Position numbers and translations under genes: made by a program
Assembly: GCF_054482595.1 (NCBI RefSeq)
Contig: NZ_CM137008.1
Reading direction: 5' to 3' (one strand)
Length of the DNA stretch: 64,000 nucleotides
The notes under the pieces: generated by a model
What the model saw: the letters and a program-made list of their open reading frames with translations, nothing else
Database searches by the model: none
Told to the model about the DNA's origin: nothing
In this document: one piece after another, positions 7,469 to 59,220 of the stretch
How the letters are laid out: each line of letters opens with the position of its first letter
How positions within the stretch are numbered: position 1 is the stretch's first letter

Positions 7469-8503
7469 ATGAGTAACGCGATTACGATGGGGATATTTTG
7501 GCATTTGATCGGCGCGGCCAGTGCAGCCTGTTTTTACGCTCCGTTCAAAAAAGTAAAAAAATGGTCATGGGAAACCATGTGGTCAGTCGGTGGGATTGTT
7601 TCGTGGATTATTCTGCCGTGGGCCATCAGCGCCCTGTTACTACCGAATTTCTGGGCGTATTACAGCTCGTTTAGTCTCTCTACGCTGCTGCCTGTTTTTC
7701 TGTTCGGCGCTATGTGGGGGATCGGTAATATCAACTACGGCCTGACCATGCGTTATCTCGGCATGTCGATGGGAATTGGCATCGCCATTGGCATTACGTT
7801 GATTGTCGGTACGCTGATGACGCCAATTATCAACGGCAATTTCGATGTGCTGATTAACACCGAAGGCGGACGCATGACGTTGCTCGGCGTTCTGGTGGCG
7901 CTGATTGGCGTAGGGATTGTAACTCGAGCCGGGCAGTTGAAAGAGCGCAAGATGGGCATTAAAGCCGAAGAGTTCAATCTGAAAAAAGGGCTGGTGCTGG
8001 CGGTGATGTGCGGCATTTTCTCTGCCGGGATGTCCTTTGCGATGAACGCCGCAAAACCGATGCATGAAGCCGCTGCCGCACTTGGCGTCGATCCACTGTA
8101 TGTCGCTCTGCCAAGCTATGTTGTCATCATGGGCGGCGGCGCGATCATTAACCTCGGTTTCTGTTTTATTCGTCTGGCAAAAGTGAAGGATTTGTCGCTA
8201 AAAGCCGACTTCTCGCTGGCAAAACCGCTGATCATTCACAATGTGTTACTCTCGGCACTGGGCGGGTTGATGTGGTATCTGCAATTCTTTTTCTATGCCT
8301 GGGGCCACGCCCGCATTCCGGCGCAATATGACTACATCAGTTGGATGCTGCATATGAGCTTCTATGTATTGTGCGGCGGTATCGTCGGGCTGGTGCTGAA
8401 AGAGTGGAACAATGCAGGACGCCGTCCGGTAACGGTGTTGAGCCTCGGTTGTGTGGTGATTATTGTCGCCGCTAACATCGTCGGCATCGGCATGGCGAAT
8501 TAA
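7469..8503 (+). CDS. rhaT: L-rhamnose:H+ symporter
   Basis: 344 aa, [35 protein letters not shown]...; 10-TM DMT-type. Confidence 0.95.
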
Positions 8504-9348
8504 TCTTTCTGCGAATTGAGATGACGCCACTGGCTGGGCGTCATCCCGGTTTCCCGGGTAAACACCACCGAAAAATAGTTACTATCTTCAAAGCCACATT
8601 CGGTCGAAATATCACTGATTAACAGGCGGCTATGCTGGAGAAGATATTGCGCATGACACACTCTGACCTGCCGCAGATATTGATTGATGGTCATTCCAGT
8701 CTGCTGGCGAAATTGCTGACGCAAAACGCGCTCACTGCACGATGCCTCATCACAAAATTTATCCAGCGCAAAGGGACTTTTCAGGCTGGCCGCCAGCCGG
8801 GTAATCAGCTTATCCAGCAACGTTTCGCTGGATGTTGGCGGCAACGAATCACTGGTGTAACGATGGCGATTCAGCAACATCACCAACTGCCCGAACAGCA
8901 ACTCTGCCATTTCGTTAGCAAACGGCACATGCTGACTACTTTCATGCTCAAGCTGACCGATAACCTGCCGCGCCTGTGCCATCCCCATGCTACCTAAGCG
9001 CCAGTGTGGTTGCCCTGCGCTGGCGCTAAATCCCGGAATCGCCCCCTGCCAGTCAAGATTCAGCTTCAGCCGCTCCGGGCAATAAATAATATTCTGCAAA
9101 ACCAGATCGTTAACGGAAGCGTAGGAGTGTTTATCGTCAGCATGAATGTAAAAGAGATCGCCACGGGTAATGCGATAAGGGCGATCGTTGAGTACATGCA
9201 GACCATTACCGCGCCAGACAATCACCAGCTCACAAAAATCATGTGTATGTTCAGCAAAGACATCTTGCGGATAACGGTCAGCCACAGCGACTGCCTGCTG
9301 GTCGCTGGCAAAAAAATCATCTTTGAGAAGTTTTAACTGATGCGCCAC
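8500..9348 (-). CDS. rhaR: AraC-family activator of rhaSR (GTG start)
   Basis: ORF track starts at an upstream ATG (319 aa), but the product aligns to RhaR from (M)[12 protein letters not shown], initiated at GTG (plus-strand CAC 9346..9348), giving 282 aa. Confidence 0.85.
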
Positions 9349-9421
9349 CGTGGCTACCTCGGCCAGAGAACGAAGTTGATTATTCGCAATATGGCGTACA
9401 AATACGTTGAGAAGATTCGCG

Positions 9422-10258
9422 TTATTGCAGAAAACCATCCCGTCCCTGACGAATATCACGCGGTGACCAGTTAAACTCTCGGCGAAAAAGCGTCGAAAAG
9501 TGGTTACTGTCGCTGAATCCGCAGCGATAGGCGATGTCAGTAACGCTGGCCTCGCTGTGGCGTAGCAGATGTCGGGCTTTCATCAGTCGCAGGCGGTTCA
9601 GGTAACGCTGAGGCGTCAGTCCCGTTTGCTGCTTAAGCTGCCGATGTAGCGTACGCAGCGAAAGAGAAAATTGATCCGCCACGGCATCCCAATTCACCTC
9701 ATCGGCAAAATGGTCCTCCAGCCAGGCCAGAAGCAAGTTGAGACTTGATGCGCTGTTTTCCAGGTTCTCCTGCAAACTGCTTTTACGCAGCAAGAGCAAT
9801 AATTGCATAAACAAGATCTCGCGACTGGCGGTCGAGGGTAAATCATTTTCCCCTTCCTGCTGTTCCATCTGTGCAACCAGCTGTCGCACCTGCTGCAATA
9901 CGCTGTGGTTAACGCGCCAGTGAGACGGATACTGCCCATCCAGCTCTTGTGGCAGCAACTGATTCAGCCCGGCGAGAAACTGAAATCGATCCGGCGATCG
10001 ATACAGCACATTGGTCAGACACAGATTATCGGTATGTTCATACAGATGCCGATCATGATCGCGTACGAAACAGACCGTGCCACCGGTGATGGTATAGGGC
10101 TGCCCATTAAACACATGAATACCCGTGCCATGTTCGACAATCACAATTTCATGAAAATCATGATGATGTTCAGGAAAATCCGCCTGCGGGAGCCGGGGTT
10201 CTATCGCCACGGACGCGTTACCAGACGGAAAAAAATCCACACTATGTAATACGGTCAT
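9422..10258 (-). CDS. rhaS: AraC-family activator of rhaBAD and rhaT
   Basis: 278 aa from [22 protein letters not shown]...; C-terminal dual HTH; upstream ATG in track not used. Confidence 0.9.
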
Positions 10259-10545
10259 ACTGGCCTCCTGATGTCGTAAACACGGCGAAATAGTAATCAC
10301 GAGGTCAGGTTCTTACCTTAAATTTTCGACGGGAAACCACGTAAAAAACGTCGATTTTTCAAGATACAGCATGAATTTTCAGGAAATGCGGTGAGCATCA
10401 CACCACCACAATTCAGCAATTTGTGAACATCATCACGTTCATCTTTCCCTGGTTGCCAATGGCCCATTTTCCTGTCAGTAGCGAGAAGGTCGCGAATTCA
10501 GGCGCTTTTTAGACTGGTCGTAATGAAATTCAGCAGGATCACATT
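10259..10545. promoter_or_regulatory. Divergent rhaSR / rhaBAD control region
   Basis: Intergenic region between divergent rhaS and rhaB; known to contain RhaS, RhaR and CRP sites; individual sites not resolved here. Confidence 0.6.
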
Positions 10546-57496: not shown

Positions 57497-58006
57497 TTAG
57501 TTGCCCCGCAGCAGACGCATCATGTCTTCTTGCTTCTCGTCTTCTTCCTCTTCTTCGTCATCGTCATAAGAGAGGCCGAGTTTCTGCATCAACTCATCAA
57601 TACGATCCAGTTTAGCATCCACCCAGGATTGCTCTTCGGCGCTCAGGGTTTCGCCTGCTTCCAGACGTTCCAGCAGCGCATCCAGACGCTCATCCGTTTC
57701 CAGTAATTCCAACTCCGCCTGCGGTGAAAGCATAGGTTTCTCACTCTTCGGTTTGTGCTGTTTGGTGACTTTTTCAGTCACGCCCAATGGAATAGGGGTT
57801 TTACTGCCAATACGTGGATCTTTTGGTGCGTTCTGGCCTTTGCTGCCTGACGTGGTGTTTCCGCCCGCTGCGCGGCTGCCCGGCGCATGACCACGACGTT
57901 TTTTCTGACGCTTGCGATCACGAGCTTCCTGATCCAGCTCCTCGCGTGTTTTTCGACGCGCTTTTGCATGACCTTTGCTGCGTGAGTTTGAAGATGATGG
58001 TTTCAT
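57497..58006 (-). CDS. yihI: Der GTPase-activating protein
   Basis: 169 aa from [26 protein letters not shown]...; highly basic N-terminus, acidic C-terminus; ORF opens 21 codons upstream. Confidence 0.88.
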
Positions 58007-58075
58007 AATGGTTCGTCTTTTAGCCGTTTTATTCAGTATAGATTTGCGGCGGAATCTAACAGAAAGCAAGCAAAG

Positions 58076-58320
58076 AAAAAAGGCGACAGATTACTCTGTC
58101 GCCTTTTTTCCTGACTCATAACCCTTAACGGGTCTTACAATCCTTGCAGGCCGCCAACACACCCTGTTTTTCCTTTAGCCGGAACAATCCGTGTTGATTC
58201 CATTTCCGTTTAATTACGTCTCCGGACGTTTGTCTTCCTGACAATCCTCTGTCTTCGCCTCCTGGCGCTCCTGACCCTCATCCTGAGTCATTGTTCCTGT
58301 TAGCGTCCTCGCTCTATGGG
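58076..58320 (-). ncRNA. csrC: CsrC small RNA (CsrA-sequestering)
   Basis: Minus strand reads AUAGAGCGAGGACGCUAACAGGAACAAUGACUCAGGAUGAGGGUCAGGAGCGCCAGGAGG...; more than ten GGA motifs; ends in hairpin AAGGCGACAGAGUAAUCUGUCGCCUUUUUU; no ORF. Confidence 0.85.
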
Positions 58321-58587
58321 TGCTACTTTACGCCTTTGCTTTAAACAAACAATCAACCGCCATCAGTATTTGCACATTTTCAGAGTTTTATATAAAAGCA
58401 ATTCACTGATTTATATAGCTTATTTGACATGCATCGCAGAATTTTCTCTGCTATTTCGCATAAAGACTATCGGCAATGTCTCACAAAGCGTATGGCTTTT
58501 ACTTACAACGCTCACGCCGAAAAATCCGCCTTTTATTATGGTTCAGGTATAATCGCCACAAAGCTTTGACTGACGGAGACGACCGCT

Positions 58588-59220
58588 TTGACTAATTTGA
58601 ATTATCAACAGACGCATTTTGTGATGAGTGCGCCTGATATTCGCCACCTACCTTCCGATACCGGAATTGAAGTGGCTTTTGCAGGCCGTTCCAACGCAGG
58701 TAAATCCAGCGCGCTGAACACGCTGACTAACCAGAAAAGCCTGGCTCGTACCTCAAAAACCCCAGGGCGCACCCAGCTTATCAACCTGTTTGAAGTGGCT
58801 GACGGCAAGCGTCTGGTTGACTTGCCTGGGTACGGTTATGCGGAAGTCCCGGAAGAGATGAAGCGCAAATGGCAGCGTGCGCTCGGCGAATACCTCGAAA
58901 AACGTCAGAGCCTGCAAGGTCTGGTGGTGCTAATGGATATTCGCCATCCGCTGAAAGATTTGGATCAGCAGATGATTGAGTGGGCGGTAGACAGCAATAT
59001 CGCCGTTCTGGTGCTGCTGACCAAAGCGGACAAACTGGCAAGCGGCGCACGTAAAGCGCAATTGAATATGGTGCGTGAAGCTGTACTGGCGTTTAACGGT
59101 GATGTGCAGGTTGAAACGTTTTCTTCGTTGAAGAAACAAGGCGTGGACAAGCTGCGGCAGAAACTGGATACCTGGTTTAGCGAGATGCAGCCTGTAGAAG
59201 AAACGCAGGACGGCGAATAA
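58588..59220 (+). CDS. engB: Ribosome-biogenesis GTPase EngB/YsxC (TTG start)
   Basis: 210 aa (M)[21 protein letters not shown]...; G1 motif GRSNAGKSS; ORF initiates at TTG with GGAG RBS; TATAAT-like -10 (GGTATAATCG) about 40 bp upstream. Confidence 0.9.

What the first reader, a model, noticed from the sequence alone, without database searches (positions are those of the whole stretch)
8500..59220. Non-ATG initiation codons: rhaR (GTG) and engB (TTG)
The homology-supported N-termini require GTG (rhaR, plus-strand CAC 9346..9348) and TTG (engB, 58588..58590). Both are mis-started by ATG-only callers, rhaR being wrongly extended 37 codons upstream into the rhaS 3' region. Weak start codons on a regulator and on a ribosome-assembly GTPase imply translational set-point control.
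Basis: partly seen in the sequence, partly recalled or inferred. Interest (0 to 1): 0.3.

Follow-up and report, generated by a model that had tools for sequence, protein, structure and literature searches.

The report
Known GTG and TTG gene starts
Two E. coli genes, rhaR and engB (yihA), really do begin with the weaker start codons GTG and TTG, but reference annotation already records this and it is ordinary; the only mildly notable point is that the engB TTG is almost never replaced across 80 related species.

Summary
The window is an E. coli chromosome segment (pfkA to yihF). rhaR starts at GTG 9348..9346 on the minus strand (282 aa). engB/yihA starts at TTG 58588..58590 (210 aa). RefSeq annotates exactly these starts, and orthologues leave no alternative.

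- **rhaR:** all ten orthologues have an in-frame stop 2-17 codons upstream of the homologous start.
- **engB:** in most of 80 species residue 13 is not Met, so the internal ATG cannot be the start.

The upstream ATG of rhaR is 30 codons away, giving the old 312-aa form. The codon 37 codons upstream is another GTG. The window also holds two more annotated GTG starts, typA and fdhD. Four of 57 starts are non-ATG, which is no more than chance.

The "set-point" reading is partly supported. The engB start is TTG in 74 species, GTG in 6 and never ATG. Its first base changed once on a tree where neutral sites changed about 20 times. For rhaR, a 2024 paper already reports near-exclusive non-ATG use in E. 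coli. No expression effect or regulated control was shown here.

Verdict: already known, low interest.

The parts
8500..9348 (-). rhaR coding sequence (282 aa), an AraC-family L-rhamnose activator
   Evidence: RefSeq CDS at these coordinates. NCBIfam RhaR equivalogs NF010025 and NF010027 score 574 and 567 bits.
9346..9348 (-). rhaR GTG start codon
   Evidence: Sequence read. The homologous codon is GTG in 9 of 10 orthologues and ATG in C. freundii. Every orthologue has an in-frame stop 2-17 codons upstream.
9357..9360 (-). GAGG Shine-Dalgarno core, 8 nt upstream of the rhaR GTG
   Evidence: Sequence read. A GAGGT or AAGGA motif sits at the same place in the orthologues.
9436..9438 (-). In-frame ATG 30 codons upstream of the rhaR start. 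It gives the historical or mis-called 312-aa form and lies inside the rhaS 3' end.
   Evidence: The 312-aa protein is on at least 1000 contigs in public records. The extension is impossible in any orthologue.
9457..9459 (-). In-frame GTG 37 codons upstream.
   Evidence: A single public record uses it (EGI18786.1).
9422..10258 (-). rhaS coding sequence (ATG start). Its stop TAA is at 9424..9422, 73 nt before the rhaR GTG.
58588..59220 (+). engB/yihA coding sequence (210 aa), a ribosome-biogenesis GTPase
   Evidence: RefSeq CDS. TIGR03598 scores 252 bits. Identical to PDB 1PUI over 210 residues.
58588..58590 (+). engB TTG start codon
   Evidence: Sequence read. TTG in 74 and GTG in 6 of 80 species, never ATG. 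One parsimony change against a mean of 20.1 at fourfold sites.
58575..58578 (+). GGAG Shine-Dalgarno core, 9 nt upstream of the TTG
   Evidence: GGAG is conserved in most of the 80 species; positions -13 to -9 show 4-7 changes against about 20 at neutral sites.
58567..58569 (+). In-frame TGA that closes the reading frame 7 codons upstream of the TTG
58624..58626 (+). Internal ATG (Met13). It is the false start that gives the 198-aa form.
   Evidence: Residue 13 is Thr, Leu or Ile in most species. The 198-aa form is present in 121 public contigs.
58548..58553 (+). TATAAT, a putative -10 element of the engB promoter (inferred only)
   Evidence: Most of the 80 species keep 'ggtataat' about 35 nt upstream of the start, and several have 'ggtatact'. 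The consensus promoter scan found no -35/-10 pair here.
   Evidence: RefSeq annotation. A stop lies 4 codons upstream and the N-terminus reads [19 protein letters not shown].
   Evidence: RefSeq annotation. A stop lies 3 codons upstream, and an in-frame ATG at codon 13 is an untested alternative.

Best explanation
Both are genuine, already-annotated non-ATG translation starts in ordinary E. coli genes. rhaR begins at GTG 9348, 8 nt after a GAGG Shine-Dalgarno core and 73 nt after the rhaS stop. engB/yihA begins at TTG 58588, 9 nt after a GGAG core. The initiator tRNA still inserts fMet, and the near-cognate codon lowers the initiation rate several-fold relative to ATG (established knowledge). 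Each gene is therefore made at a constitutively lower level per mRNA.

**Shown here**
- The start positions.
- The strong evolutionary retention of a non-ATG codon at engB.

**Inferred**
- That the weak codon is kept because higher EngB or RhaR dosage is disadvantageous. This would be dosage tuning, as shown experimentally for lacI GTG.

**Confidence by step**
- Start-site assignment: about 0.95.
- Selection for a weak start at engB: about 0.6.
- Selection for a weak start at rhaR: about 0.4.
For: - RefSeq annotation coincides with both starts.
- The RhaR family profiles start at the GTG, and the EngB family profile starts before Met13.
- All ten rhaR orthologues have in-frame stops 2-17 codons upstream and a conserved SD. 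The rhaS-rhaR spacer varies from 65 to 157 nt, so it is non-coding.
- The engB start is TTG in 74 and GTG in 6 of 80 species. Met13 is not conserved and GGAG is conserved.
- The first base of the engB start shows 1 change against 20.1 on average at 50 fourfold sites, and no neutral site is as conserved.
- PDB 1PUI is the 210-aa protein. In 7SZS the residue aligned to EngB position 1 is Leu, as expected if a TTG is read internally after a vector tag (inference).
- Literature: GUG and UUG initiate at 10-100 % of AUG (10.1101/063800) or 8- to 12-fold lower (PMC11445065). rhaR is almost exclusively non-ATG in 10,643 E. coli genomes, and a lacI GTG-to-ATG swap changes gut fitness (PMC11445065).
Against: - No N-terminal peptide or initiation-profiling data for either gene could be retrieved.
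- rhaR conservation is not significant on 11 taxa: 11 % of fourfold sites are as conserved.
- C. freundii has ATG at the rhaR start.
- Genome-wide, selection favours ATG and is weak, so many non-ATG starts may be near-neutral (PMC5622118).
- The engB sample covers only Enterobacteriaceae and Pantoea, because the tool kept the best 80 loci.
Confidence: 0.85

Rival explanations
1. Near-neutral drift. The weak start codons have no adaptive meaning. In weakly expressed genes GTG or TTG is simply tolerated and persists by chance or by shared ancestry.
For: Selection on start codons is weak overall, with a sizeable neutral range of initiation rates (PMC5622118). The rhaR pattern on 11 taxa is statistically unremarkable, and one lineage has ATG. 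Non-ATG starts are not enriched in the window.
Against: The first base of the engB start changed once, while fourfold sites in the same gene and on the same tree changed 2-34 times (mean 20.1). ATG never arose in 80 species. E. coli rhaR is almost exclusively non-ATG in 10,643 genomes (PMC11445065).
Confidence: 0.3
2. Dual initiation at rhaR in E. coli. Ribosomes also start at ATG 9438, possibly by coupling to rhaS termination 14 nt downstream. This would give a 312-aa (35.7 kDa) isoform beside the 282-aa (32.3 kDa) protein, so the long form would not simply be an annotation error.
For: The frame is open for 78 codons upstream in E. coli. The ATG overlaps the rhaS 3' end and follows a weak AGGGA motif. 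The sizes were computed. From memory only, not verified here: older experimental work used 312-residue numbering and may have reported two RhaR polypeptides (Tobin and Schleif 1990).
Against: All ten orthologues have a stop 2-17 codons upstream, so the extension is not conserved. The family profiles begin at the GTG. The SD-like motif before the ATG is weak and only 4 nt away. RefSeq uses 282 aa, including for K-12.
Confidence: 0.15
3. Regulated, not merely reduced, initiation. The TTG and GTG codons make translation sensitive to IF3 or ribosome availability. EngB synthesis (and that of typA, another GTPase with a GTG start in the window) would then track translational capacity, which is true set-point control.
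For: IF3 discriminates against non-AUG starts (discussion in 10.1101/063800). The engB TTG is strongly conserved. typA, a ribosome-associated GTPase, also has a GTG start with no in-frame alternative.
Against: GTG and TTG belong to the canonical class that IF3 discriminates only mildly, unlike the AUU of infC (established knowledge). No conserved RNA structure is present at either initiation region (z-scores -1.19 and +0.69).
Confidence: 0.1
4. engB actually starts at the internal ATG (Met13, 58624), giving a 198-aa protein, as annotated in some older E. coli records.
For: The 198-aa form exists in 121 public contigs, for example DH10B ACB04879.1.
Against: Residue 13 is Thr, Leu or Ile in most of 80 species, while residues 1-12 are conserved as protein with synonymous changes. 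No SD precedes the ATG. The family profile TIGR03598 and distant PDB homologues align from residues 6-10.
Confidence: 0.02

Closest known systems
Reference annotation of E. coli rhaR (282 aa, GTG) and yihA/engB (210 aa, TTG) in RefSeq/PGAP and UniRef (ENGB_ECOLI)
   Same: Coordinates, start codons and protein lengths are identical.
   Different: Nothing differs. The finding restates the current annotation. Only older or automatic records differ: RhaR 312 or 319 aa, EngB 198 aa.
lacI GTG start codon and the non-ATG preference of carbohydrate regulators (Nat Microbiol 2024, PMC11445065)
   Same: A weak start codon on a sugar-operon regulator, conserved across strains and interpreted as dosage tuning. 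That paper names rhaR among the four regulators that are almost exclusively non-ATG in E. coli.
   Different: For lacI the ATG swap was made and shown to alter operon expression and gut fitness. For rhaR only the codon distribution is known. RhaR is an activator that autoregulates rhaSR, so the consequence of lower dosage need not mirror that of a repressor.
infC (IF3) AUU start-codon autoregulation
   Same: A non-AUG start on a translation-related gene whose use depends on initiation fidelity factors. It is the model for 'set-point control' through a start codon.
   Different: AUU is a non-canonical codon strongly discriminated by IF3, and the feedback loop has been demonstrated. engB uses the canonical alternative TTG, and no feedback is known or was tested here (established knowledge; mentioned in 10.1101/063800).
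Genome-wide evolution of prokaryotic start codons (Belinky, Rogozin and Koonin 2017, PMC5622118)
   Same: It provides the framework: AUG is optimal, GUG and UUG are sub-optimal, and the SD is more conserved in non-AUG genes. That fits the conserved GGAG of engB.
   Different: The general trend is replacement towards AUG. engB goes against it, keeping TTG or GTG in all 80 species sampled.

Membership tests
RhaR (AraC/XylS-family L-rhamnose activator, NCBIfam equivalogs NF010025/NF010027) | Full-length match above the curated cut-off | tested here: met
   574.4 bits (cut-off 525) and 567.4 bits (cut-off 384).
RhaR (AraC/XylS-family L-rhamnose activator, NCBIfam equivalogs NF010025/NF010027) | The N-terminus of the family coincides with the proposed start | tested here: met
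   Profile position 2 aligns to ORF residue 39, so position 1 is the GTG codon (residue 38 of the 319-aa ORF). The 11 aligned N-termini agree.
RhaR (AraC/XylS-family L-rhamnose activator, NCBIfam equivalogs NF010025/NF010027) | The rhaS-rhaR tandem next to rhaT and divergent from rhaBAD | tested here: met
   Gene order in the window and in the orthologous loci.
EngB/YihA/YsxC ribosome-biogenesis GTPase (TIGR03598) | Full-length equivalog match, with the G1 motif GRSNAGKSS after a conserved N-terminal strand | tested here: met
   252.2 bits (cut-off 124.45), residues 10-193 against profile positions 2-185. Identical to PDB 1PUI.
Bacterial genes initiated at GTG or TTG | A near-cognate codon 5-10 nt downstream of a Shine-Dalgarno core, at the 5' limit of the conserved coding region | tested here: met
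   GAGG plus 8 nt for rhaR, and GGAG plus 9 nt for engB. Upstream regions diverge and vary in length, while downstream regions are conserved as protein.
Bacterial genes initiated at GTG or TTG | No alternative in-frame start is compatible with the orthologues | tested here: met
   For rhaR, stops lie 2-17 codons upstream in all ten orthologues. For engB, a stop lies 7 codons upstream and Met13 is absent in most species.
Bacterial genes initiated at GTG or TTG | Direct evidence for the N-terminus (fMet peptide or an initiating-ribosome peak) | not testable with these tools
   The supplements of TRAINSPOTTER, Ribo-RET and INRI-seq held no entry for yihA, engB or rhaR.
Weak-start-codon dosage tuning (lacI GTG type) | The non-ATG codon is retained across strains and genera beyond the neutral expectation | tested here: met
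   Met for engB: 1 change against a mean of 20.1 at fourfold sites, with 0 of 50 sites as conserved. Inconclusive for rhaR in my own sample, but reported for 10,643 E. coli genomes in PMC11445065.
Weak-start-codon dosage tuning (lacI GTG type) | Replacing the codon by ATG raises protein level and changes fitness | not testable with these tools
   This requires allelic replacement and measurement.
Start-codon-based autoregulation (infC AUU type) | A feedback loop in which the gene product or IF3 modulates use of the unusual codon | not tested
   No data. No conserved RNA structure is present at either initiation region.

The most novel reading that the evidence does not exclude
The engB TTG (GTG in the Enterobacter clade) is actively maintained against replacement by ATG across Enterobacteriaceae and Erwiniaceae. 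The reason would be that the dosage of this essential 50S-assembly GTPase must stay low, or must follow initiation-factor and ribosome availability. On this reading the start codon is a conserved, functional part of ribosome-biogenesis homeostasis. typA/bipA, with a GTG start that has no in-frame alternative in the same window, would be a second case.
Probability: 0.2. Interest if true: 0.35.

Novelty: already known. Interest (0 to 1): 0.1.

Why it matters
Its practical value is for annotation quality. ATG-biased or longest-ORF gene calling still propagates a 312- or 319-aa RhaR and a 198-aa EngB in thousands of public records. This shifts residue numbering and obscures the rhaS-rhaR intergenic spacer.

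Biologically, the only point with some value is that the engB start codon is far more conserved than neutral sites and is never ATG. That makes engB a clean candidate for a start-codon swap experiment on dosage control of a ribosome-assembly factor.

None of this changes current understanding. Weak start codons as expression tuners are established, and rhaR has already been named in that context.

Tried and rejected
1. **Experimental N-terminus data.** Full-text searches for RhaR start, N-terminus or two-polypeptide data found nothing usable. The EcoGene 3.0 paper mentions yihA only as an uncharacterised gene. The 2005 K-12 annotation-snapshot paper is not held.
2. **Supplements of initiation-mapping papers.** TRAINSPOTTER has no entry. 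No Ribo-RET supplement is held, and its text mentions neither gene. INRI-seq lists alternative sites for rhaS and fdhD but nothing for rhaR or yihA.
3. **RNA structure masking the initiation regions.** Folding energies are not different from shuffles, with z-scores of -1.19 (engB) and +0.69 (rhaR), so I rejected this as a regulatory element.
4. **Consensus promoter scan upstream of engB.** It found no -35/-10 pair, so the mostly conserved TATAAT remains a putative -10 only.
5. **Within-E. coli variation of the rhaS-rhaR junction.** K-12 and two divergent strains keep the same layout, with too few differences to test coding constraint on the 30-codon extension.
6. **engB starting at Met13.** Rejected, because residue 13 is not Met in most species.
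7. **Clustering of non-ATG starts in the window.** Rejected: 4 of 57.
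Full report
**Identity of the window.** The 64-kb window is an Escherichia coli chromosome segment running from pfkA to yihF. A 2-kb query around rhaSR matches 5,423 of 5,426 complete E. coli genomes. The window differs at 6 of 63,998 compared positions from strain XH990 (NZ_CP019359.1; window position = record position minus 4,645,789).

**The observation.** On the minus strand the rhaR region reads ...ggccGAGGtagccacgGTGgcgcatcag... The GTG is at 9348..9346, the GAGG core at 9360..9357, and the spacer is 8 nt. On the plus strand the engB region reads ...TGActgacGGAGacgaccgctTTGactaat... The TTG is at 58588..58590, the GGAG core at 58575..58578, the spacer is 9 nt, and an in-frame TGA lies at 58567. 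RefSeq/PGAP annotates rhaR as 8500..9348 (282 aa) and yihA as 58588..59220 (210 aa), exactly the codons named in the finding. The K-12 MG1655 record has the same rhaR layout.

**Errors of detail in the finding.**
- The in-frame ATG upstream of rhaR is at 9438..9436, 30 codons upstream. It lies inside the last codons of rhaS (stop TAA at 9424..9422) and gives a 312-aa protein.
- The codon 37 codons upstream (9459..9457) is a GTG. It is the first start candidate of the longest ORF (319 aa).
- The annotated starts of the 57 genes whose starts lie in the window are 53 ATG, 3 GTG and 1 TTG.
- The typA GTG has no in-frame alternative. A stop lies four codons upstream. The only other candidate is a TTG four codons downstream, and that codon is already the Leu of the conserved [16 protein letters not shown]-terminus.
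- Four non-ATG starts in 57 is fewer than the roughly 9.7 expected from the 83/14/3 % usage cited for E. coli, and unremarkable at 10 %.

**Are these the true starts? rhaR.**
- The NCBIfam RhaR equivalog profiles (282 positions) align to the 319-aa ORF from residue 39 at profile position 2. The family therefore begins at the GTG.
- Nearly all of the 120 best database relatives are 282 aa. The E. coli cluster representative is 312 aa.
- I fetched ten orthologous loci: Salmonella, three Citrobacter-like, Enterobacter, Leclercia, Superficieibacter, Scandinavium and two unnamed.
- In every one an in-frame stop lies 2-17 codons upstream of the homologous start, and no upstream start candidate exists beyond one adjacent codon.
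- A GAGGT or AAGGA motif precedes the start in each.
- The rhaS-rhaR spacer is 65-75 nt or 140-157 nt, so it is non-coding.
- The homologous codon is GTG in 9 of the 10 orthologues and ATG in C. freundii. In one locus (L093) the gene caller chose an ATG two codons upstream that abuts the SD, which makes the homologous GTG the likelier start.

**Are these the true starts? engB.**
- One scan of species-representative genomes returned 80 loci from Enterobacteriaceae and Pantoea.
- The codon aligned to 58588 is TTG in 74 and GTG in 6 (Enterobacter and Silvania), and never ATG.
- Residue 13 (Met in E. coli) is Thr, Leu or Ile in most species, so the internal ATG cannot be the family's start.
- Residues 1-12 are conserved as protein with synonymous changes.
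- Sequence upstream of the GGAG diverges, apart from a TATAAT kept in most species (TATACT in several) about 35 nt upstream.
- TIGR03598 aligns from residue 10, and distant PDB homologues from residues 6-9. PDB 1PUI is the 210-aa protein. In 7SZS the residue aligned to position 1 is Leu at chain position 10, as expected if a TTG is read internally after a vector tag (inference).

**Mis-calling is real.** Exact look-ups show all variants in public records:

| Protein form | Public contigs |
|---|---|
| RhaR 282 aa | at least 1000 |
| RhaR 312 aa | at least 1000 |
| RhaR 319 aa | 1 |
| EngB 210 aa | at least 1000 |
| EngB 198 aa | 121 (for example DH10B) |

**Does the weak codon mean anything?**
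- *engB.* I built a codon alignment and a neighbour-joining tree of 81 sequences and counted Fitch parsimony changes. Fifty fourfold-degenerate sites changed 2-34 times (mean 20.1). The first base of the start codon changed once (T to G). No neutral site was as conserved. The SD positions changed 4-7 times. A single T-to-A change would create ATG, and ATG is generally favoured (PMC5622118), so its complete absence argues for purifying selection that keeps a sub-optimal codon.
- *rhaR.* With 11 taxa the same test is not significant: 1 change against a mean of 3.4, and 11 % of neutral sites are as conserved. One lineage has ATG.
[quoted passage not shown] It also shows experimentally that changing the lacI GTG to ATG alters lac expression and gut fitness.
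- *Effect size.* GUG and UUG initiate at 10-100 % of AUG in reporter assays (10.1101/063800), or 8- to 12-fold lower according to PMC11445065.

**Mechanism.** The best-supported reading is plain. Both genes use SD-dependent initiation at a near-cognate codon read by fMet-tRNA, which gives a fixed lower initiation rate. For engB, selection probably retains this to hold dosage down; for rhaR, possibly. The start positions and the conservation are shown. The dosage rationale is inferred. Regulated control, for example through IF3 as for infC AUU, is speculation. I found no significant RNA structure at either initiation region.

**A rival specific to E. coli.** The ATG at 9438 may also be used, giving 35.7-kDa and 32.3-kDa isoforms. 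The frame is open only in E. coli, the preceding AGGGA is a poor SD with a 4-nt spacer, and no orthologue can make the extension. My recollection that older biochemical work used 312-residue numbering and may have seen two polypeptides could not be checked with the library.

**Comparison with what is known.** The finding restates current reference annotation and, for rhaR, a published observation. The engB conservation statistic appears to be a small addition, not a new kind of thing. From memory, a 2020 arXiv preprint cited by PMC11445065 lists genes that prefer non-AUG starts across bacteria. I could not check whether engB is among them.

**Verdict.** Already known and low interest. The start-site claims are correct, with two corrections. 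The functional inference is plausible for engB, already proposed in print for rhaR, and untested for both.

Noticed in passing
window 58064..58317 (-) and 59346..59464 (-): Two small RNAs flank engB: CsrC (278.7 bits) upstream and divergent, and Spot 42 (122.8 bits) between engB and polA. engB therefore sits in a short island between two regulatory RNA genes.
   Followed up: partly
window 58125..58291 (-): RefSeq strain XH990 annotates a 'hypothetical protein, frameshifted; internal stop' pseudogene here. It lies entirely inside the CsrC RNA gene and is probably a spurious CDS call.
   Followed up: partly
window 51095..51097 (-) and 21948..21950 (-): typA/bipA, another ribosome-associated GTPase, and fdhD are also annotated with GTG starts. 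The typA GTG has no in-frame alternative because a stop lies 4 codons upstream. fdhD has an in-frame ATG at codon 13 that was not tested against orthologues.
   Followed up: partly
L084, L085, L086, L090: positions about 1045-1200 (rhaS-rhaR spacer): In Salmonella and the Citrobacter-like loci the rhaS-rhaR spacer is 140-157 nt, against 65-75 nt elsewhere. It carries a REP-like palindrome (for example ccggataaggcg...catccggca).
   Followed up: no
L093 1201..1209: The gene caller started this rhaR orthologue at an ATG that directly abuts the GAGGT motif (zero spacer). The homologous GTG two codons downstream has a normal 6-nt spacing. This looks like an ATG-biased mis-call in the opposite direction.
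   Followed up: partly
window 58520..58553 (+), and L004-L083 about 60 to 30 nt before the start: A 'gcctttt...ggtataat' block upstream of engB is kept, with variation, in most of the 80 species (several have 'ggtatact'). No recognisable -35 hexamer is present, and the consensus scan reports no promoter. It may be a -10-dominated promoter or a shared divergent control region with csrC.
   Followed up: partly
PDB 7SZS chain A residue 10: In the deposited EngB chain 7SZS the residue aligned to E. coli position 1 is Leu (LTNWNYQ...), at chain position 10. A tagged construct appears to have translated the native TTG start codon internally as leucine.
   Followed up: no
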